Program-made: the position numbers and the translations under genes
The notes under the pieces: generated by a model
Seen by the model: only the letters and a program-made list of their open reading frames with translations
Told to the model about the DNA's origin: nothing
The model's database searches: none
Shown: one piece after another, positions 3,874 to 22,946 of the stretch
Layout of the letters: the number at the start of each line of letters is the position of its first letter
Position numbering within the stretch: the stretch's first letter is position 1
Origin: Escherichia phage vB_EcoM_SA91KD
DNA length: 53,673 nucleotides
Sequence record: NC_079183
Direction: 5' to 3' (one strand)

Positions 3874-4092
3874 ATGACTCGTTTTAAAGATTTGGAAGAT
3901 GGTGCAATCTTCTTTACGCGTGGCGGAGAACATCTGCAAAAAGTTTTGGAAGATGACATTAATGTAAATGCTGTATTCGTTGGTGATTCTAGCATTGGTG
4001 TTTTATTAAATGACAATGAAAGAACTTTTACAGAAGAGGAGTTTAAAGAAATCTCAGCTTCTGATTCAGTTCAAGAGCCAATTTCAGTTTAA
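3874..4092 (+). CDS. Hypothetical early protein (72 aa, acidic)
   Basis: ATG preceded by aggag RBS; first gene after the non-coding region. Confidence 0.6.
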   Translation: MTRFKDLEDGAIFFTRGGEHLQKVLEDDINVNAVFVGDSSIGVLLNDNERTFTEEEFKEISASDSVQEPISV

Positions 4093-5440: not shown

Positions 5441-5749
5441 ATGGCTTCTTTACTCGAATTCTCGAATATTGCAAATGTTGCTAAGAATTCCATCCCTGCA
5501 AATACCGACGTAATTGCGTACATGCGTGTTGATGTAAGTCTGTTAGCTTTTGTAATGGACCACATCAACCTAATCGAAGCGCAGTTGTCTCAGTCTTATG
5601 AAACAGTTGACACTCTTCGTGAACTTCGTAAGGCAGAACAAAGCGCCTACGATGAATTAATGGAGCAGAAGAACAAGCTCCAAGAACAGTTGGCAGACGC
5701 ACTTCAACAAATTGAAGACATGAAGCCACCAGCAGAACCAACCGAATAA
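5441..5749 (+). CDS. Hypothetical protein with predicted coiled-coil C-terminus (102 aa)
   Basis: ORF with RBS; heptad-like charged C-terminal half. Confidence 0.55.
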   Translation: MASLLEFSNIANVAKNSIPANTDVIAYMRVDVSLLAFVMDHINLIEAQLSQSYETVDTLRELRKAEQSAYDELMEQKNKLQEQLADALQQIEDMKPPAEPTE

Positions 5750-7935: not shown

Positions 7936-7975
7936 ATTAACAAGGAGCATTCATTGAGTGTTCCTGATTAATTCA

Positions 7976-7992
7976 ACATTAGTTGGATGTGA
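7976..7992 (+). promoter_or_regulatory. Promoter-like box ACATTAGTTGGATGTGA
   Basis: Exact consensus, intergenic, about 75 nt upstream of the SSB-like gene. Confidence 0.45.
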
Positions 7993-8064
7993 GAGACAAA
8001 GCTATTCCGTGGTTAGCAATGTCACTGAAACTTAAACTGTAATTAACTTAAGAGAATCTTAATC

Positions 8065-9455: not shown

Positions 9456-9507
9456 TTAACAGAGGTCATTCCACTTCGAGTGGCCTCGATTAATTATAGG
9501 AGGAATT

Positions 9508-10310: not shown

Positions 10311-10569
10311 AGAACTGGCTGACCAACTTAAGGCAGCAAAACGAGAGTCTGCAAATCAATCAGAACGTGTTGCAAAACTGAAAGGGCAAGGCTCAACGTC
10401 CGAAGAAATCCAGTTATTTACAGATAATGTCTGGTTTTCAATGAATCGTGCACAATTTATCGAGATTCAGGAAGAACGTCTTACTGAACTGGAGAAGCGT
10501 GTAGAAACACTTGAGAGCTTGCTTGTAACACTGCAAGAAACTCTGGACCAGGAACTGAAAAATGTCTAA
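10300..10569 (+). CDS. Hypothetical coiled-coil protein (89 aa; start uncertain)
   Basis: Track ORF with GTG start overlapping the upstream stop. Confidence 0.4.
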   Translation: MKVEELADQLKAAKRESANQSERVAKLKGQGSTSEEIQLFTDNVWFSMNRAQFIEIQEERLTELEKRVETLESLLVTLQETLDQELKNV

Positions 10570-10978
10570 CGTTAAGCTGGGCCAACGCTCCCTTGACCGA
10601 CTCAAAGGTGTAAATCCTTCATTGGTGGCAGTTTTCAAGCGTGCATGTGAAACAATGCCGTTTGACGTAACTGTTCTTGAAGGATTGCGCACTTATGAGC
10701 GTCAACAAGAGCTTTTAAAGCAAGGTGCAACCAAAGTTCCAGTTAGCCGACACATGTCAGGCAACGCTTTAGATATTGCACCATATCCAATTGACTGGAA
10801 TGACCTCGAACGATTCAAAGTTTTAGCTCATCATATGTTCAAAGCTGCAAAAGAGCTTGGAATTACCATTCGTTGGGGTGGGAACTGGAGCCGTATTGAT
10901 GAAAATCAGCCGTATCCACCACTTGCACCAGGTAAGAAGAAGCTGATTGATATGCCGCACTTCGAACTTCCAGCATAA
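10562..10978 (+). CDS. Peptidase M15 (L-alanyl-D-glutamate peptidase type, T5-endolysin-like), 138 aa
   Basis: Zinc-site motifs SRHMSGNALDI and DMPHFE; region DIAPYPIDWNDLERF...KELGITIRWGGNW resembles the phage T5 endolysin (recalled from memory). Confidence 0.7.
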   Translation: MSNVKLGQRSLDRLKGVNPSLVAVFKRACETMPFDVTVLEGLRTYERQQELLKQGATKVPVSRHMSGNALDIAPYPIDWNDLERFKVLAHHMFKAAKELGITIRWGGNWSRIDENQPYPPLAPGKKKLIDMPHFELPA

Positions 10979-10986
10979 CTTCATCA

Positions 10987-11277
10987 ATGGAGCATCCGAT
11001 GAATTACGAAGATATCCCAAGAGAGTTGAATGCACTAGAGGCAAGGACCAGACGTGCAGAATCTGTTCTCCACCAGCACCTGTCACTTAATGTAAGTGAT
11101 GAAAAAAGGATGCGGTATACTTTGGAACTTGACGAAGTGGTTTATACTGTCAGCTACAACGAGAAGGCCGCTATTCTAAGTGCGCTTGTCAAAAGCGGAG
11201 AGGAGCGAATCAATCAGCTTAAAATTCTGGACACAGAATTGAAAGGTACTTGGGAGAAACTCAATGCAAAACGATAA
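10987..11277 (+). CDS. Hypothetical protein (92-96 aa)
   Basis: Likely ATG near 10999 after ggagcatccg RBS. Confidence 0.5.
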   Translation: MEHPMNYEDIPRELNALEARTRRAESVLHQHLSLNVSDEKRMRYTLELDEVVYTVSYNEKAAILSALVKSGEERINQLKILDTELKGTWEKLNAKR

Positions 11278-11812
11278 CATCGCTAAAGCAGTAGAACAGC
11301 TAAAGTCCTGGCGTAGAGATGAAACCTTACTGGTTCGTTTCTACACAGGCGAAACTAATTCTGAATTTGTAGATGCGTGGATTGATGGCCTATCTTGGCG
11401 TCACTATGATTTCGACATGCGAGATTATTTGCATGAAGAATACGGCATTGAATATCCAGAAGACGGCACATATGACGTAATTGAATCAAACGAAGAAGAT
11501 GTTACCGAAGTTTGTTTTGTTGACGGACTGTTCAGCATTCGTAAGTATGATAAGTTCAATGAGCTGCTTGTTGACACCGATTTGGATGTAATTCTTGCAG
11601 CATTCCGTAGTGGTGATATTGATATTTTCACTGTGGATGACTTGAACGACAAGGTTATTGCCCGATGTGATTCAATTGCGGAATATTTCCAACAATATGA
11701 TGGCATAGAAGTTCCAGACCACCTTCGTCCATATATTGATTGGGATGCAGTTGTAAGAGATTACGGAAGTGATTACACTTTCTCCGAAGGAATACTATTC
11801 TCAAATGCGTGA
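11264..11812 (+). CDS. Highly acidic protein, ArdA-like antirestriction (DNA-mimic) candidate, 182 aa
   Basis: About a quarter Asp/Glu; C-terminal EVPDHLRPYIDWDAVVRDYGSDYTFSEGILF resembles the conserved ArdA C-terminus as I recall it. Confidence 0.5.
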   Translation: MQNDNIAKAVEQLKSWRRDETLLVRFYTGETNSEFVDAWIDGLSWRHYDFDMRDYLHEEYGIEYPEDGTYDVIESNEEDVTEVCFVDGLFSIRKYDKFNELLVDTDLDVILAAFRSGDIDIFTVDDLNDKVIARCDSIAEYFQQYDGIEVPDHLRPYIDWDAVVRDYGSDYTFSEGILFSNA

Positions 11813-12044
11813 TTTAAATATTGCTGAACTTGAGGCTGGATTGATTGTTCACCACCAGACTCGAAACACTTTCTATCGTATTCTTGGACCCACAAAGATT
11901 AAAACTCACTGCGGAAGTTGGGTGGATGGGTTTGCTTACCAAGAGGTGAAGAAGTACGGGGACCATACTTTCTTAAGCATTGATTCTTCTACTATCTACA
12001 CACGACCGAAAGAGCTATTTGACTCGGATTGGAAAACACTGTAG
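11769..12044 (+). CDS. Hypothetical protein (79-91 aa; start GTG 11769 or ATG 11805)
   Basis: ORF overlapping the end of the acidic gene. Confidence 0.4.
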   Translation: MITLSPKEYYSQMRDLNIAELEAGLIVHHQTRNTFYRILGPTKIKTHCGSWVDGFAYQEVKKYGDHTFLSIDSSTIYTRPKELFDSDWKTL

Positions 12045-12110
12045 TTCCAGGCGGGTTTCTTCGAAGTGCCAAGCGGGTTTTGTACTCGCATTGGCCTTCT
12101 GCTTTAGTCT

Positions 12111-12130
12111 GAAACATTAGTGGGATTTGA
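12111..12130 (+). promoter_or_regulatory. Promoter-like box variant (gaaACATTAGTgGGATtTGA)
   Basis: First of three tandem copies in a non-coding kilobase. Confidence 0.4.
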
Positions 12131-12254
12131 TTCTGACCACTTAGGGAAGAAAGGCATTATACACTTATCGCCAAATGGGTGTCAAGCACTTTCTTCATTT
12201 ATTTTAATTTATTCTTATTATTCTCTTTGTTTGGAATATTGGAATAATTCTGAA

Positions 12255-12271
12255 ACATTAGTTGGAATTGA
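12255..12271 (+). promoter_or_regulatory. Promoter-like box (tctgaaACATTAGTTGGAaTTGA)
   Basis: Second tandem copy; shares the tctgaaac prefix with the 12111 and 14552 copies. Confidence 0.4.
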
Positions 12272-12391
12272 ATTAGTGTAATTCTGTCTGTACTCTTTTC
12301 CATTAGCAATTGTAGAGGGAGTCCACTGCAATAAGCGCAGCCTCAAACAACCAAGTCTGGACAACTTGGGAAGAGAGTGCAGCACAAAATT

Positions 12392-12408
12392 ACATTAGTT
12401 GGAGTTGA
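12392..12408 (+). promoter_or_regulatory. Promoter-like box (tACATTAGTTGGAgTTGA)
   Basis: Third tandem copy. Confidence 0.4.
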
Positions 12409-12690
12409 AGAAACAACATCAGATAATAACTTTGTAACTCGGTAGACCGTTGCGGCCGCATCGTGCGAGAATGTTCGACTCATTCTACAAAGTTATTTTC
12501 GATGGAATGTTTCCATCATATACATTTATCTTTTAACATAGGCCAAAGGGCCGGAATACTTATTCGCAGAAAAGCTATTCACTTGTTATAGGCGATGTAT
12601 TGGGATGAATTGGAACTAAATAAGCAAGCTGTTAGGGCTGAATAATTAGAGGGTTATGCCTCATGCTTATGTTAGTCATTCGAAAATAGG

Positions 12691-13024
12691 TTTGTGCCAC
12701 AAGCCGCTGGTGCTCTGAGGGAGTCGGACAAACAGGGCTTAGAGTGGCATAATCCGCACAAAACCGCGCCACCAGCTATGCCAAAGCGGGTGGTTTGGGT
12801 GAATGTATTGGGAAGGGTTGCAAAGCCTCTGTGGCCTCCGCAGCTTGCCAGGCTGCTATGCAGATATGATGCGTAGGTCGCACCCTAACGGGAGTAACCC
12901 TTCGCCAATGCAGTTATCCAGAATTGACACAAACGGTAGGCAGCGGCCCGATTTTCGGCCTTCCTGCGCTACTCTGTGGCCTGTTCCTGGGCCAAAAGAT
13001 GAGAAGAGAAGTCACAAACACTGA
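12691..13024 (+). ncRNA. GC-rich non-coding island; candidate structured RNA or small inserted element
   Basis: Visibly GC-richer than flanks; track ORFs here translate to Pro/Arg/Trp-rich nonsense; internal repeat ctctgtggcct twice; flanked by imperfect direct repeats (attcgaaaatagg / aatcgaaaattgg). Confidence 0.3.
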
Positions 13025-13045
13025 ATCGAAAATTGGAGAGTTCCT

Positions 13046-15888: not shown

Positions 15889-15895
15889 ATTATTT

Positions 15896-15982
15896 GGACG
15901 AGTAGCTCAGAAGGTCTGCTCCAGAGCTGGTAGAGCAATCTGTTCGACAGATGTGTCGTTGGTTCGAATCCAACCTCGTCCA
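15896..15982 (+). tRNA. tRNA-like element with atypical internal structure (possible pseudo-tRNA or non-canonical tRNA)
   Basis: Canonical 7-bp acceptor stem (GGACGAG / CTCGTCC) and T-arm (GTTGG-TTCGAAT-CCAAC) with discriminator A; the 55 nt between them cannot be folded by eye into standard D and anticodon arms. Anticodon not assignable. Confidence 0.35.
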
Positions 15983-16015
15983 CCCACTTTAATAATTCGC
16001 AATACTGGAGTCCTT

Positions 16016-16156
16016 ATGGATTTTGATGCACTTGATAACTTAGACTTCGGTGCTGCCGAAGAAGCAATTGAAGAACTTAAGAAGAAGCAGGACGAAGAAG
16101 CAATCGTTCCTGGTGAGGGCGATAACGACTGCTCAAGCGGTGCTTGCGCCATCTAA
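16016..16156 (+). CDS. Small acidic peptide with Cys/Ser-rich C-terminus (46 aa)
   Basis: ATG after ggag RBS; acidic N-terminal part then ...CSSGACAI-stop. Confidence 0.35.
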   Translation: MDFDALDNLDFGAAEEAIEELKKKQDEEAIVPGEGDNDCSSGACAI

Positions 16157-20739: not shown

Positions 20740-22674
20740 GTGTTGTATCCTTGGGAGAACATGTACGCCAGTGACATTGAAACAACTGGCCTGTTGGAGC
20801 AAATGCGTAAGCAAGCTGCACCACGTCTTCACAACATTGGATATATTGATGTTCTAACTCGTGAAGAAACTGTAATAGAGTGGACCGACAGAAAATCTAT
20901 CCAGGCATTTCTGGATACAGGCCCAACGCTAATCATGCACAACGGCGCAACCTTTGACTTTGAAGCACTGAGGTTCCTTGGTTACGACGTTTCAAAATGT
21001 ACCTTAATTGATACTTTGTTTATCAGTTGGTATCTGCAACCTCGTCGTGTTAAGCACGGCTTAGAAGGTTACGGCGAAGAGTTTGGTGTACCAAAACCAG
21101 TCATCGAAGATTGGGAAAATCAAACTCAAGAAGAGTACAACCATCGTGTGATGGAAGACTGCAAGATTCAGTTGAAGCTGTGGGAACAGCAATACATTCA
21201 ACTCTTGAAGATTTATAAATCTCCTAGCGAAGTTAAGCGCTTCGTTGAATACCTGATGACAAAAGCTCGTCAGCAAGTTATTCAGCAACGTACTCGCTGG
21301 AAGTTAAACATTGAGAAGGCATTGGCATTTAAAGCCAAACTGGAGCCAATGATTAAAGAGAAGACGGACGCATTGGAAGCATCAATGCCGCGTGTTCCGG
21401 AATATGTTATCAAGACCCGTCCAGCTAAATGCCACAAAATGAACGGGCAACTGTCTGCCACTGGAATTAAGTGGAAGGCTATTTGTGATGCAAACGGTTT
21501 GGACTGGAAAGACCCAGACCTGGCTATCAAAGTTCTTAAAGGTTATAAGAAGCCTAATGCTGGTTCACATGTTCAAATTAAGGATTGGTTGTTCAGCCTG
21601 GGTTGGGAACCGGAAACCTTTAAGTTTGACCGTAACAAGGAAACAGGTGAAACTCGCCAGATTCCACAAATCACTGTGAAGGATGAAGATGGCAATCCTG
21701 AAATATGTCCGAGCTTGCATAAGCTGGCGGAAAGAAACCCCGACTCTGGTATTCAACATCTTATTGGGATGGGCGTGTATAAACACCGTCTGTCTGTTGT
21801 TAATGGCTTCCTTCGCGACGTCGATGAAGATGGGTTCCTTACTGCACGATGCGGTGGCCTTACCAATACTTTACGCCTTAAGCATCGCGAACTTGTTAAC
21901 CTCCCTTCTATTCGTGTATTTGGCGGTGAAGAACTGCGTTCAATGCTGGAAGCGTGGCGTGAAGACTACGAACAGTTAGGCTCTGATTTGTGTTCTCTGG
22001 AAGACCGATGTAAGCACCACTTCCAGTGGATGTATGACCCTGAATACGTTAAGAAGCAGTTGGCACCAGACTATGATGCTCACCTTGCAATCGGCGTAAT
22101 TGGTGGATTTATTACAGAACAGGAGTCTCAGGACCACAAGGACGGAATTAAGAAGTGTAAACAACGTCCAATGTTTAAGACCACAAACTATGCTTGTCAG
22201 TATGGTGCTGGTATACCAACTGTAGCCCGTTCTGCTGGTTGCGACCAGAATACTGCTGCACGACTGCATAAAGCATATTGGGACTTGAACTGGTCTATTA
22301 AAGAGATTGCTGCAAACACCAAAGTTGTAACAATTGATGGTCAGATGTGGCAACAGAATCCGGTAAACAAATTCTGGTATTCATTGCGTACAGAGAAAGA
22401 CCGATTCTCCACATTGTGTCAGGGTACTGGTGCATATGTGTTTGATATTTGGTGTAACAACATCATTGCAATTTGTAATGAGCGTTGGGGATGTGACCCA
22501 CTTCTGTCCGGGCAATTCCACGACGAATTGATTCTCCAAGTTAAGAAAGGTTTCCGTGATTTGTGGACGGACTTGCTTAATGAGGCAATGGACCGAACCA
22601 ACAAAGAACTTAAACTTAACCGCGATTGTGCATGTGATGTGCAGTTCGGTGATAACTACGCAGAGATTCACTAA
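20740..22674 (+). CDS. Family A DNA polymerase with 3'-5' exonuclease domain (T7 gp5-like), 644 aa
   Basis: Exo I DIETTGL; polymerase motif B KTTNYACQYGAG; motif C QFHDE. GTG start per track; ATG at 20761 possible. Confidence 0.85.
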   Translation: MLYPWENMYASDIETTGLLEQMRKQAAPRLHNIGYIDVLTREETVIEWTDRKSIQAFLDTGPTLIMHNGATFDFEALRFLGYDVSKCTLIDTLFISWYLQPRRVKHGLEGYGEEFGVPKPVIEDWENQTQEEYNHRVMEDCKIQLKLWEQQYIQLLKIYKSPSEVKRFVEYLMTKARQQVIQQRTRWKLNIEKALAFKAKLEPMIKEKTDALEASMPRVPEYVIKTRPAKCHKMNGQLSATGIKWKAICDANGLDWKDPDLAIKVLKGYKKPNAGSHVQIKDWLFSLGWEPETFKFDRNKETGETRQIPQITVKDEDGNPEICPSLHKLAERNPDSGIQHLIGMGVYKHRLSVVNGFLRDVDEDGFLTARCGGLTNTLRLKHRELVNLPSIRVFGGEELRSMLEAWREDYEQLGSDLCSLEDRCKHHFQWMYDPEYVKKQLAPDYDAHLAIGVIGGFITEQESQDHKDGIKKCKQRPMFKTTNYACQYGAGIPTVARSAGCDQNTAARLHKAYWDLNWSIKEIAANTKVVTIDGQMWQQNPVNKFWYSLRTEKDRFSTLCQGTGAYVFDIWCNNIIAICNERWGCDPLLSGQFHDELILQVKKGFRDLWTDLLNEAMDRTNKELKLNRDCACDVQFGDNYAEIH

Positions 22675-22946
22675 TGCAAACTGTATATTCTATTTTCGAT
22701 ATGCAGGAATTAGAGCACCATATGTTTGCTGCTGATTCCGAAGTTCCAGCAAAGGACGCCGTAATGGCGTTCCTTGAAAAGATTAAGGACGAGGTGTTCG
22801 CTTCGTCTGACCCACAGTCTCAAGCATTCAACGACGAGACATTCAAAAACATCCAAACTTTAATTTCGGCAACGTCTTCAATTGAAGAGCTGTCCGAAGC
22901 ATTAGTTGGATATGACTTCCGGCTTGCTATGTTGCAAGTCGACTAA
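22674..22946 (+). CDS. Small acidic protein (90 aa)
   Basis: ATG overlaps the polymerase stop; a promoter-like box sits in its 3' end. Confidence 0.5.
   Translation: MQTVYSIFDMQELEHHMFAADSEVPAKDAVMAFLEKIKDEVFASSDPQSQAFNDETFKNIQTLISATSSIEELSEALVGYDFRLAMLQVD
22899..22916 (+). promoter_or_regulatory. Promoter-like box (gCATTAGTTGGATaTGAc) embedded in coding sequence
   Basis: Consensus match about 60 nt upstream of the 22977 gene. Confidence 0.35.

What the first reader, a model, noticed from the sequence alone, without database searches (positions are those of the whole stretch)
11264..11812. Highly acidic early protein resembling ArdA-type antirestriction DNA mimics
The 182-aa product is about a quarter Asp/Glu, and its C-terminal region (…EVPDHLRPYIDWDAVVRDYGSDYTFSEGILF) resembles the conserved C-terminus of ArdA proteins as I recall them. 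It lies in the early region, where anti-defence genes are expected.
Basis: partly seen in the sequence, partly recalled or inferred. Interest (0 to 1): 0.55.

Follow-up and report, generated by a model that had tools for sequence, protein, structure and literature searches.

The report
Divergent phage ArdA antirestriction protein
This gene of a phiEcoM-GJ1-like coliphage encodes a real but divergent member of the ArdA family of DNA-mimicking proteins that block type I restriction enzymes; close relatives are already annotated this way, so it is a correct but ordinary finding whose activity has never been tested.

Summary
The ORF is exactly as described: 11264..11812 (+), 182 aa, 23.6% Asp/Glu, net charge -28, the most acidic of about 80 ORFs in the window. 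The window is a Carltongylesvirus (Chaseviridae) genome. The same gene, phiEcoM-GJ1 gp22, carries an "antirestriction protein" annotation in many deposited relatives.

The ArdA call holds up, but not by a plain Pfam scan: PF07275 scores 16.9 bits against a cut-off of 27. Stronger tests agree:
- The family profile retrieves almost only ArdA proteins from 1.84 billion sequences.
- hhalign against canonical ArdAs, including the solved Tn916 Orf18, gives 99% probability and E about 2e-17 over nearly the full length.
- A confident AlphaFold model has 2W82 as its only significant PDB match.
- The dimer-interface "antirestriction motif", the VF motif and the acidic pattern are conserved.
- Syntenic orthologues in sister genera pass Pfam's threshold.

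It belongs to a phage-specific ArdA clade with an extra N-terminal helix, a larger domain 1 and a conserved overlapping 79-aa partner ORF.

"Early" is imprecise. The gene lies 3.3 kb downstream of a phage-RNAP-type promoter, behind the endolysin, so it is not an immediate-early gene like T7 ocr.

Antirestriction activity is inferred only. Novelty is low.

The parts
11264..11812 (+). CDS of the 182-aa ArdA-family protein, the orthologue of phiEcoM-GJ1 gp22 and ST32 gp26
   Evidence: It is 96.7% identical at protein level to the ST32 'antirestriction protein'. It matches PHROG 14321 at 2e-52. hhalign to canonical ArdA gives 99% probability and E 2e-17. The only significant PDB match to its model is 2W82.
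11252..11256 (+). Shine-Dalgarno sequence GGGAG, 7 nt upstream of the ATG
   Evidence: Read from the sequence. The ST32 paper lists the same RBS, GGGAGAAactcaATG.
11264..11323 (+). Clade-specific N-terminal helix, aa 1-20 (net charge 0; invariant A9, L13, W16, R17, E20), absent from canonical ArdA
   Evidence: The AF2 model places a helix at residues 2-15 with pLDDT about 67. The alignments show it in all phage-clade members and not in Orf18 or the canonical ArdAs.
11324..11521 (+). Enlarged equivalent of ArdA domain 1 (aa about 21-86), containing invariant W39 (= Orf18 W23) and the clade motif WIDGL-W--YDFDM--YLHEEYGI
   Evidence: Global hhalign mapping and domain statistics are.
11522..11650 (+). 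Equivalent of ArdA domain 2 (aa 87-129), helical, net charge -7
11651..11809 (+). Equivalent of ArdA domain 3 (aa 130-182), the best conserved part of the protein
11702..11743 (+). 'Antirestriction motif' and dimer-interface segment, aa 147-160 GIEVPDHLRPYIDW (= Orf18 127-140). P151, L154, Y157, I158 and D159 match Orf18 P131, L134, Y137, I138 and D139. D166, just downstream, matches D146.
   Evidence: The residue mapping and its conservation in 20 phage-family and 10 canonical sequences are. The roles of these residues are described in McMahon 2009 (PMC2731889).
11795..11800 (+). Equivalent of the 'VF motif', L178-F179 (= Orf18 I160-F161). F179 is invariant.
   Evidence: The role of the motif is described in PMC2731889.
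11805..12044 (+). Conserved 79-aa downstream ORF (gp23-like, PHROG 2652, unknown function) whose ATG overlaps the end of the ArdA-like gene by 8 nt. It is probably translationally coupled.
   Evidence: It is conserved in the same overlapping position in phiEcoM-GJ1 (91%), Faunus (43%), 4HA13 (36%) and PM1 (36%). dN/dS is 0.12. No family or PDB match was found.
10987..11277 (+). Upstream 96-aa ORF that overlaps the ArdA-like start by 14 nt. It is a variable neighbour.
   Evidence: A weak homologue exists in Faunus (gp20, 31% identity, E 6e-6). phiEcoM-GJ1 has no counterpart.
7974..7993 (+). Nearest upstream phage-RNAP-type promoter motif, CAACATTAGTTGGATGTGAG. It is the presumed promoter of the unit that contains the gene.
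   Evidence: It matches 'putative phage promoter 3' in the phiEcoM-GJ1 record. No other match within 5 mismatches lies between 7974 and 12112.
12112..12409 (+). Cluster of three phage-promoter-like motifs (12112, 12253, 12390) that marks the start of the next transcription units, just after the ArdA-like and gp23-like pair

Best explanation
The gene encodes a divergent, phage-borne member of the ArdA family, a three-domain, elongated, highly acidic DNA-mimic protein. By inference from canonical ArdA, two monomers pair through the conserved domain-3 'antirestriction motif' to give a rod whose carboxylates imitate the phosphate backbone of bent B-DNA. This rod would occupy the DNA-binding groove of the HsdM2S core of host type I restriction-modification enzymes, and their HsdR contacts, and so block restriction and possibly modification of the phage genome, which carries many type I target sites.

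Shown here: the ORF, its extreme acidity, purifying selection, homology to ArdA, an ArdA-like predicted fold, conservation of the interface and VF residues, conserved synteny across Cleopatravirinae, and position in a unit headed by a phage-RNAP-type promoter.

Inferred, not shown: dimerisation, binding to type I enzymes, the in vivo antirestriction effect, and timing of expression.

The confidence of 0.75 is for the whole statement including function. For ArdA-family homology alone I would give about 0.97.
For: 1. Family-level sequence evidence. All 20 close family members hit PF07275 at E < 0.1, the best at 5.5e-09. The family profile, searched against 1.84 billion representative proteins, returned 72 hits at E <= 1e-3. 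Of the 61 retrieved proteins scanned, 54 are PF07275 at E <= 1e-3 and no other Pfam family appears. Ten of ten sampled distant hits pass Pfam's curated cut-off.

2. Profile-profile comparison with the solved Orf18 (sequence verified identical to 2W82) plus nine ArdAs that pass the gathering score gives 98.9-99.0% probability and E 1.7e-17 to 2.4e-17 over 142-148 columns, covering Orf18 residues 1/15-164.

4. Residues named as essential or interface-forming in PMC2731889 are conserved: W39 = W23, P151 = P131, L154 = L134, Y157-I158 = Y137-I138, D159 = D139, D166 = D146, L178-F179 = I160-F161. Of 35 aligned acidic positions in Orf18, 18 are acidic here against a 24% background. The net charge of -28 lies within the canonical range of -22 to -33.

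5. Syntenic orthologues in sister genera pass Pfam's threshold themselves: PM1 33.1 bits and 4HA13 33.8 bits.

6. The genome is a real substrate for type I enzymes, with 11 EcoBI, 6 EcoAI, 17 EcoR124I and 24 EcoR124II sites.

7. dN/dS is 0.14.

8. Even the isolated C-terminal ArdA domain (sArdC) gives antirestriction in vivo (PMC12548430), and domain 3 is the best conserved part of this protein.
Against: 1. On its own the protein fails Pfam's PF07275 gathering threshold (16.9 against 27 bits). It has no NCBIfam hit, and phmmer against the PDB finds nothing. With the close-family profile, the 2W82 hit is marginal (E 0.012) and an archaeal PriL chain scores as well (E 0.008).

2. Pairwise similarity to plasmid ArdAs is confined to about 35 C-terminal residues.

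3. The protein differs from canonical ArdA. It has an N-terminal helix of about 20 aa, domain 1 is 82 rather than 59 residues, and G21, invariant in the 10-sequence canonical set (A3), is replaced by an invariant Asp.

4. By position the gene is expressed from a phage-RNAP-type promoter 3.3 kb upstream, behind a terminator-like hairpin at 9462-9487 and the endolysin gene. That is late for protecting incoming DNA if the whole genome is injected at once.

5. An ArdA-like phage protein with a different demonstrated target, EndoV, is known (PMC13091555).

6. I found no experimental test of any Chaseviridae ArdA.
Confidence: 0.75

Rival explanations
1. The protein has the ArdA fold and acts as a DNA mimic, but its main target is not a type I R-M enzyme. 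It could instead inhibit another DNA-binding host factor, such as a repair or degradative nuclease, BREX-type methyltransferases or another defence system. It might also act together with the conserved 79-aa partner.
For: Fletchervirus gp119, an ArdA-like phage protein, binds and inhibits EndoV (PMC13091555). DNA mimics have target spectra that depend on their shape: Ocr inhibits BREX but ArdA does not (PMC10149784). This clade has clade-specific features, namely an N-terminal helix with invariant W16 and R17, an enlarged domain 1 and D37 in place of the G that is invariant in the canonical comparison set. It also has a partner ORF that overlaps in all four genera compared. Expression from a phage-RNAP unit rather than as the first gene suits a target that acts after the first minutes.
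Against: The parts of ArdA that overlay the type I target sequence (domain 3) are the best conserved here, including every interface residue. Carltongylesvirus DNA is not reported to contain modified bases that would call for a repair inhibitor (ICTV profile). Canonical ArdA did not inhibit BREX or EcoPI. No positive evidence points to any alternative target.
Confidence: 0.17
2. The protein is an acidic protein with a non-defence role, such as a virion, tail-fibre, scaffold or replication-inhibitor protein, as some GenBank records label it. On this reading the ArdA resemblance is a chance match of a short acidic C-terminal motif.
For: Several deposited records call the orthologue 'tail fiber protein' (MLP1, PYps3T/4T/16T/23T, FXie-2024a) or 'replication inhibitor protein' (Pel53). 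The single-sequence Pfam, PDB and plasmid hits are weak and confined to the C-terminus. A PriL chain scored like 2W82 in one profile search.
Against: Full-length profile-profile homology gives E about 2e-17. Two independent fold searches each return 2W82 as the single significant hit, and PriL does not appear. The reciprocal search retrieves ArdAs almost exclusively. The gene lies among early and middle genes, about 17 kb upstream of the large-ORF block from about 28 kb, which is probably the packaging and morphogenesis module (not annotated here). The odd labels have no support in any profile library I searched.
Confidence: 0.03
3. The gene is a decaying remnant of an ArdA gene that no longer has any function.
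For: It scores below the Pfam threshold, and the Carltongylesvirus branch is the most divergent within the phage clade.
Against: The ORF is intact in all 54 phage records that match. dN/dS is 0.14 at dS 0.84. There are 41 invariant columns across sequences that are 40-97% identical. The RBS and synteny are conserved across four genera.
Confidence: 0.03

Closest known systems
ArdA of Tn916 (Orf18; PDB 2W82; complexes with EcoR124I 7BTO and 7BTR), the structural archetype of Pfam PF07275
   Different: Sequence identity is only about 17-21%. The window protein has an extra N-terminal helix of about 20 aa. Domain 1 is larger, 82 against 59 residues, and carries its own conserved motif. G21 is replaced by Asp. 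There is no clear equivalent of F91, where the alignment is uncertain. The gene is carried by a virulent phage rather than a conjugative element. The protein falls below Pfam's gathering score.
Plasmid ArdA proteins of enterobacterial conjugative plasmids (ColIb-P9/R64, pKM101/R46 type; here an IncF ArdA, WP_023332911.1)
   Same: The C-terminal motif matches...EVPDHLRPYIDWDAVVRDY...EGILFSN against ...EVPESLRVYFDYEAYARDL...EGFVFSN, with 51% identity over 35 columns and hhalign E 1.8e-7. The host range (Enterobacteriaceae) and the presumed targets (EcoKI-type enzymes) are the same.
   Different: Outside the C-terminus there is no pairwise-detectable similarity. Plasmid ardA genes lie in the leading region and are expressed transiently on entry (cited, ref 62). 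The phage gene lies in a unit headed by a phage-RNAP-type promoter.
Chaseviridae (Cleopatravirinae) 'antirestriction protein' genes: phiEcoM-GJ1 gp22, ST32 gp26, 4HA13 gp22, Faunus gp21, PM1_013 (PHROG 14321)
   Same: They are orthologues, 25-97% identical, in the same syntenic slot and with the same N-terminal extension. The window gene is simply another allele of this gene.
   Different: Nothing of substance differs. The window protein differs from ST32 by about 3% of its residues.
Ocr (T7 gene 0.3 protein)
   Same: It has the same functional logic: a phage-encoded, highly acidic, dimeric DNA mimic directed against type I R-M (PMC2731889; PMC12455610).
   Different: There is no sequence or fold relationship, and no Ocr hit appeared in the Pfam or PDB searches. 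Ocr mimics about 24 bp and ArdA about 42 bp. ocr is the first gene to enter the cell and is transcribed by host RNAP, which is not the case here. Ocr also blocks BREX, whereas canonical ArdA does not.
Fletchervirus gp119 (ArdA-like EndoV inhibitor) and the sArdN/sArdC small ArdAs
   Same: These are ArdA-derived DNA mimics found outside conjugative elements. Domain 3 is the conserved functional core.
   Different: gp119 matches only ArdA domains 2 and 3 and serves a dI-containing genome. The sArdAs are single-domain proteins. The window protein is a full three-domain ArdA with an added N-terminal helix.

Membership tests
ArdA (Pfam PF07275) | Scores at or above Pfam's curated gathering threshold (27 bits) on its own | tested here: not met
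   The score is 16.9 bits, E 0.01, aligning residues 62-173 to model positions 56-146 of 155. This is an operational cut-off rather than a biological feature. Syntenic orthologues PM1_013 (33.1 bits) and 4HA13 gp22 (33.8 bits) pass it, and P0049 and P0051-P0064 carry precomputed PF07275 assignments.
ArdA (Pfam PF07275) | Statistically supported full-length homology to bona fide ArdA proteins | tested here: met
   hhalign of the family against Orf18 plus nine ArdAs that pass the gathering score gives 98.9-99.0% probability, E 1.7e-17 to 2.4e-17 and 142-148 columns. In the reciprocal search, 54 of 61 retrieved representatives are PF07275 and no other family appears.
ArdA (Pfam PF07275) | Elongated three-domain monomer fold as in 2W82 | tested here: met
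ArdA (Pfam PF07275) | 'Antirestriction motif' (Orf18 126-140) with the essential Y137 and I138 and the interface residues L134, D139 and D146 | tested here: met
   The equivalents are P151, L154, Y157, I158, D159 and D166. They are invariant or nearly so in 20 phage-family sequences and in 10 canonical ArdAs. The definitions come from PMC2731889. L127 is not conserved, but it is also not conserved among the canonical ArdAs.
ArdA (Pfam PF07275) | Essential VF motif in the middle strand of domain 3 (Orf18 I160-F161) | tested here: met
   The equivalent is L178-F179. F179 is invariant in every alignment made.
ArdA (Pfam PF07275) | Dense surface negative charge in all three domains, mimicking the DNA backbone | tested here: inconclusive
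   The sequence-level test is met. The net charge is -28, split -14, -7 and -6 across the three domain equivalents, against -12, -10 and -9 in Orf18. Of 35 aligned acidic positions in Orf18, 18 are acidic here against a 24% background.
ArdA (Pfam PF07275) | Head-to-head homodimer through domain 3, giving a mimic of about 42 bp | not testable with these tools
The only available evidence is conservation of the interface residues.
ArdA (Pfam PF07275) | Binds the type I methyltransferase core and relieves type I restriction in vivo | not testable with these tools
   This needs an experiment. I found no published test of any Chaseviridae homologue.
ArdA (Pfam PF07275) | Typical length of 160-177 aa with no N-terminal extension | tested here: not met
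   The protein is 182 aa. It has an extra clade-specific N-terminal helix of about 20 residues and insertions in domain 1. This is a descriptive rather than essential feature. The N-terminal part of ColIb-P9 ArdA is dispensable (PMC2731889).
Immediate-early anti-restriction genes (T7 ocr; leading-region plasmid ardA) | First gene or genes to enter and be expressed by the host machinery | tested here: not met
   The gene lies about 11 kb from the left end, downstream of the phage RNAP gene (749-2602). Its nearest upstream promoter-like element is the phage-type motif at 7974. No convincing sigma-70 promoter lies just upstream; the only + strand matches nearby, at 11382 and 11412, score 9 of 12 and lie inside the ORF. 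The test is positional only, with no transcript data.
Ocr (T7 gp0.3) | Sequence or fold similarity to Ocr | tested here: not met

The most novel reading that the evidence does not exclude
The Cleopatravirinae proteins form a distinct ArdA variant. It has an added N-terminal helix with an invariant Trp-Arg, an enlarged and separately conserved domain 1, and a 79-aa partner of unknown fold that overlaps in all four genera compared. It is expressed from a phage-RNAP unit rather than immediately on entry. This variant might have a different or broader target range than plasmid ArdA, for example another DNA-binding defence or repair enzyme. It might also work as a two-protein module with the gp23-like partner.
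Probability: 0.18. Interest if true: 0.5.

Novelty: already known. Interest (0 to 1): 0.2.

Why it matters
Practically, it confirms that the "antirestriction protein" label carried by Carltongylesvirus and other Cleopatravirinae genomes rests on real ArdA homology, not only on a short acidic motif. It also flags the "tail fiber protein" and "replication inhibitor protein" labels on some orthologues as unsupported.

Biologically the interest is modest. ArdA is best known from conjugative elements. A core, vertically inherited ArdA clade in a family of virulent myoviruses with a T7-like RNA polymerase would be a convenient system for asking how a DNA mimic protects a genome when it is not the first gene expressed. 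It could also show whether the clade-specific N-terminal helix, domain 1 and the coupled small partner change target specificity. These phages are used in biocontrol and therapy work, so knowing whether they are resistant to type I restriction bears on host-range prediction.

Tried and rejected
- Single-sequence phmmer against PDB sequences found only a spurious LPXTG protein at E 0.73.
- The close-family profile against the PDB gave 2W82 at a marginal E of 0.012, and archaeal PriL chains at E 0.008-0.018 over the same C-terminal stretch. I rejected PriL as a chance match because it is absent from both fold searches and from the reciprocal sequence search.
- Weak Pfam co-hits (DUF6429 in 9 of 20 members at E >= 0.012; NV_polyhedrin and others) were treated as noise.
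- NCBIfam gave no hit.
- PADLOC gave a weak 'oligonucleotide cyclase' hit (E 0.0017, 15.8 bits) to the N-terminal 57 residues. I rejected it as noise because no other evidence supports it.
- tblastn against plasmids gave no significant hit, with E 0.1-0.8.
- The afdb50 fold library was not available.
- The original phiEcoM-GJ1 genome paper (PMC2223254) is not held. The stated basis of the 2008 annotation is therefore known only from the GenBank note, 'similar to NP_511210 and NP_857871', and I could not look those accessions up.
- The downstream partner ORF found only close relatives with no annotation, and had no Pfam or PDB profile hit.
- Other very acidic small ORFs belong only to PHROGs of unknown function.
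- Literature searches found no experimental work on a Chaseviridae ArdA.
Full report
OBSERVATION. A GGGAG ribosome-binding site lies 7 nt upstream. The product has 43 Asp+Glu (23.6%) and 15 Lys+Arg, giving a net charge of -28 and a pI of 4.06. This is not a property of the genome as a whole. Among 80 crude + strand ORFs the mean Asp+Glu content is 11.9% (sd 4.3%), and this ORF is the most acidic by net charge per residue (rank 1 of 80, z = -2.6). The quoted C-terminal sequence is present as written.

WHAT THE WINDOW IS. The window is colinear with Escherichia phage phiEcoM-GJ1 and is closest to phage ST32 (Chaseviridae, Cleopatravirinae, Carltongylesvirus). Identity to ST32 is 95.5% at nucleotide level around the gene and 96.7% at protein level for this ORF. 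tblastn found the gene in 54 phage records. Many deposited records call it '(putative) antirestriction protein'. The phiEcoM-GJ1 RefSeq record annotates gp22 as an anti-restriction protein 'similar to NP_511210 and NP_857871'. PHROGs holds it as phrog_14321, 'anti-restriction protein' (E 2e-52). The ST32 paper lists it the same way, purely by similarity to gp22 (PMC6266442). The interpretation therefore already exists as an annotation. What remained open was whether that annotation is sound.

IS IT AN ArdA? PF07275 scores E 0.01 and 16.9 bits against a gathering score of 27. Single-sequence searches of the PDB, NCBIfam and the plasmid collection give nothing significant. In the plasmid search, however, 17 of the 25 listed weak hits fall on annotated ardA genes, aligned to query residues 149-181. 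Five stronger tests are consistent.

(i) All 20 members of the close family hit PF07275 at E < 0.1, the best at 5.5e-09.

(ii) A profile of that family was searched exhaustively against 1.84 billion representative proteins and returned 72 hits at E <= 1e-3. Of the 61 retrieved proteins scanned, 54 are PF07275 at E <= 1e-3 and no other Pfam family appears. Ten of ten sampled distant hits pass Pfam's curated threshold at 28.7-109 bits.

(iii) Profile-profile comparison used a canonical set headed by the solved Tn916 Orf18. The comparison gives 98.9-99.0% probability, E 1.7e-17 to 2.4e-17 and 142-148 aligned columns spanning almost all of Orf18. One caveat applies: the nine non-Orf18 sequences were recruited by the phage profile. 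Their ArdA status is nevertheless independently certified by Pfam.

(v) Orthologues in the same syntenic slot in sister genera pass Pfam's threshold on their own (PM1 33.1 bits, 4HA13 33.8 bits). The Carltongylesvirus and Faunusvirus branches fall below it (window 16.9, GJ1 20.5, Faunus 17.5).

I conclude that the protein is a true but divergent ArdA-family member.

DEFINING RESIDUES. McMahon et al. 2009 (PMC2731889) define three domains in Orf18 (residues 3-61, 62-103 and 104-165). They also define the 'antirestriction motif' (126-140), which forms the dimer interface. The essential residues are Y137 and I138 at the interface and F91 and F161, with the VF motif at I160-F161. The interface contacts are L127, L134, D139 and D146. 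Mapping through the global hhalign alignment gives these equivalents:
- W39 = W23
- P151 = P131
- L154 = L134
- Y157 = Y137
- I158 = I138
- D159 = D139
- D166 = D146
- L178-F179 = I160-F161

Each is invariant or nearly so in both the 20 phage-family sequences and the 10 canonical ArdAs. Of the 35 aligned acidic positions in Orf18, 18 are acidic in the window protein, against 24% expected from its composition. The net charge of -28 falls inside the canonical range of -22 to -33. The charge is spread over all three domain equivalents: -14, -7 and -6, against -12, -10 and -9 in Orf18. F91 has no clear equivalent, but the alignment there is uncertain and the position varies among canonical ArdAs too.

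HOW IT DIFFERS. The whole phage clade shares an N-terminal helix of about 20 residues. This covers the window family plus more distant relatives, several of which come from contigs of about 53 kb. In the window family (A1) the helix has invariant A9, L13, W16, R17 and E20, no net charge and a lower pLDDT of about 67. The clade also shares an enlarged domain 1 (82 against 59 residues) with its own conserved block, WIDGL-W--YDFDM--YL-EE-GI. Both features are absent from canonical ArdAs. G21, invariant in the 10-sequence canonical set (A3), is an invariant Asp (D37) in the window family.

CONTEXT AND TIMING. The single-subunit RNA polymerase gene lies at 749-2602 and is followed by a strong terminator-like hairpin at 2610-2637. 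The 20-nt motif annotated as 'putative phage promoter' in the phiEcoM-GJ1 record (consensus AAACATTAGTTGGATGTGAA) occurs on the + strand only. The sites with up to 3 mismatches are at 2717, 3567, 7974, 12112, 12253, 14556 and 22897, and four weaker matches also occur. The ArdA-like gene is the second-to-last gene of the stretch between the motif at 7974 and the cluster at 12112, 12253 and 12390. That stretch runs SSB, a 302-aa ORF, a terminator-like hairpin with a poor T-tract at 9462-9487, four small ORFs, the M15 endolysin (10562-10978), a 96-aa ORF, the ArdA-like gene and a 79-aa ORF. No convincing sigma-70 promoter lies just upstream.

The order SSB, lysis enzyme, (small ORF), ArdA-like gene, overlapping small ORF and then about 1 kb with little or no annotated coding sequence is conserved in phiEcoM-GJ1, Faunus, PM1 and 4HA13. 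The gene is therefore ancestral core content of Cleopatravirinae and not a recent import. It evolves under purifying selection, with dN/dS 0.14, similar to the endolysin at 0.18.

'Early region' is thus only approximately right. By position this is a phage-RNAP-dependent gene, unlike T7 ocr or leading-region plasmid ardA. These are positional inferences. I found no transcript data, and the ICTV profile states that Chaseviridae promoters have not been identified.

MECHANISM (INFERRED). By homology, two monomers should pair through the domain-3 motif to give an acidic rod that mimics about 42 bp of bent DNA. This rod would occupy the DNA-binding groove of type I R-M enzymes (PMC2731889; ArdA-EcoR124I complexes 7BTO and 7BTR are listed). 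The genome needs such protection. It carries 11 EcoBI, 6 EcoAI, 17 EcoR124I and 24 EcoR124II sites. Only EcoKI is somewhat depleted, with 2 observed against 7.9 +/- 2.5 expected. No DNA modification is reported for the family. Domain 3 alone (sArdC) is enough for antirestriction in vivo (PMC12548430), and domain 3 is the best conserved part here.

The weak point is timing. If the whole genome enters at once, a protein made only after the phage RNAP appears would act late. In Autographiviridae, sensitivity to type I R-M is set by sites in the early-injected region (PMC12455610). Whether Chaseviridae DNA entry is stepwise is unknown.

RIVALS. The serious rival is retargeting. An ArdA-like Fletchervirus protein inhibits EndoV (PMC13091555). 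Mimic specificity depends on shape: Ocr blocks BREX, whereas ArdA blocks neither BREX nor EcoPI (PMC10149784). The clade-specific N-terminal helix, domain 1 and coupled partner leave room for this reading, to which I give about 0.17. The chance-resemblance or structural-protein reading (about 0.03) and the decaying-remnant reading (about 0.03) are contradicted by the fold, reciprocal-search and selection results.

VERDICT. The function is untested. The finding is already known as an annotation. Interest is low (0.2), with a modest upside if the clade-specific features turn out to change the target or to require the partner protein.

Noticed in passing
window 11805-12044 (+): A 79-aa ORF (PHROG 2652, unknown function) starts 8 nt before the ArdA-like stop codon (ATGCGTGA). 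It is conserved in the same overlapping position in four Cleopatravirinae genera at 36-91% identity, with 15 invariant residues including W39, G42, Y45, R67, F72, D73, D75 and W76. dN/dS is 0.12. It looks like a conserved, translationally coupled partner of the ArdA-like gene. No Pfam, NCBIfam, PADLOC or PDB match was found.
   Followed up: partly
window 12045-13045: An ORF-poor stretch of about 1 kb follows the gene pair. It is also largely or wholly unannotated in Faunus, PM1 and 4HA13. It holds three phage-promoter-like motifs in tandem (12112, 12253, 12390; spacing 141 and 137 nt). It also holds a perfect 12/12 sigma-70 consensus on the minus strand (12185-12156), several inverted repeats and a GCGGCCGC-centred palindrome (12448-12463). 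From my own knowledge, tandem phage promoters next to a non-coding stretch recall the T7 primary replication origin. This was not tested. Rfam found nothing here.
   Followed up: partly
window 570, 2717, 3567, 7974, 12112, 12253, 12390, 14224, 14556, 22897, 42766 (+): A conserved 20-nt motif (consensus AAACATTAGTTGGATGTGAA, core CATTAGTTGGA) occurs only on the + strand. The stronger matches correspond to the 'putative phage promoters' annotated in the phiEcoM-GJ1 record. The 2022 ICTV profile says that Chaseviridae promoters have not been identified, so this motif is a ready candidate for testing.
   Followed up: partly
GenBank records of orthologues (MLP1 OK148439/NC_079176; PYps3T/4T/16T/23T; FXie-2024a PP107930; Pel53 PP952070): The orthologous gene is labelled 'tail fiber protein' in several records and 'replication inhibitor protein' in one. 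No profile library I searched supports these labels. 'Staphylococcus phage Pel53' (host given as S. hyicus) is about 89% identical at nucleotide level to these coliphages, so the host label looks doubtful.
   Followed up: no
window 10562-10978 (+): The M15-family endolysin (Peptidase_M15_4, E 1.5e-08; PHROG 465) lies in the early-middle, phage-RNAP-driven gene block just upstream of the ArdA-like gene, far from the structural genes. A lysis enzyme occupies this position in all four genera examined.
   Followed up: no
window 10987-11277 (+): A 96-aa ORF overlaps the ArdA-like start by 14 nt. It has a weak homologue in Faunus (gp20, 31% identity, E 6e-6) and a same-sized ORF at that position in 4HA13 (no detectable similarity). 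phiEcoM-GJ1 has no counterpart; there the endolysin is followed directly by gp22. It matches no family.
   Followed up: partly
window 15895-15986 (+): There is a single tRNA gene of 92 nt. ARAGORN calls it tRNA-Ser (GCT) and Rfam scores it at 45.6 bits. The tRNA annotated at the corresponding position of the phiEcoM-GJ1 record is tRNA-Arg, 'may contain an intron'. A 67-aa ORF called mechanically at 15953-16156 overlaps it and is probably spurious.
   Followed up: no
whole window: Type I target-site counts are uneven. EcoKI has 2 observed against 7.9 +/- 2.5 expected, and EcoEI 2 against 6.8. EcoR124I has 17 against 10.0 and EcoR124II 24 against 10.2, using a first-order Markov null. With this many motifs tested, these deviations may not be meaningful.
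   Followed up: no
window 3874-4092, 22674-22946, 5441-5749 (+): These are other small, strongly acidic ORFs (pI 4.2-4.4; D+E 18-22%) in the early and middle regions. All belong to PHROGs of unknown function. They are candidates for further DNA mimics or host-takeover proteins.
   Followed up: partly
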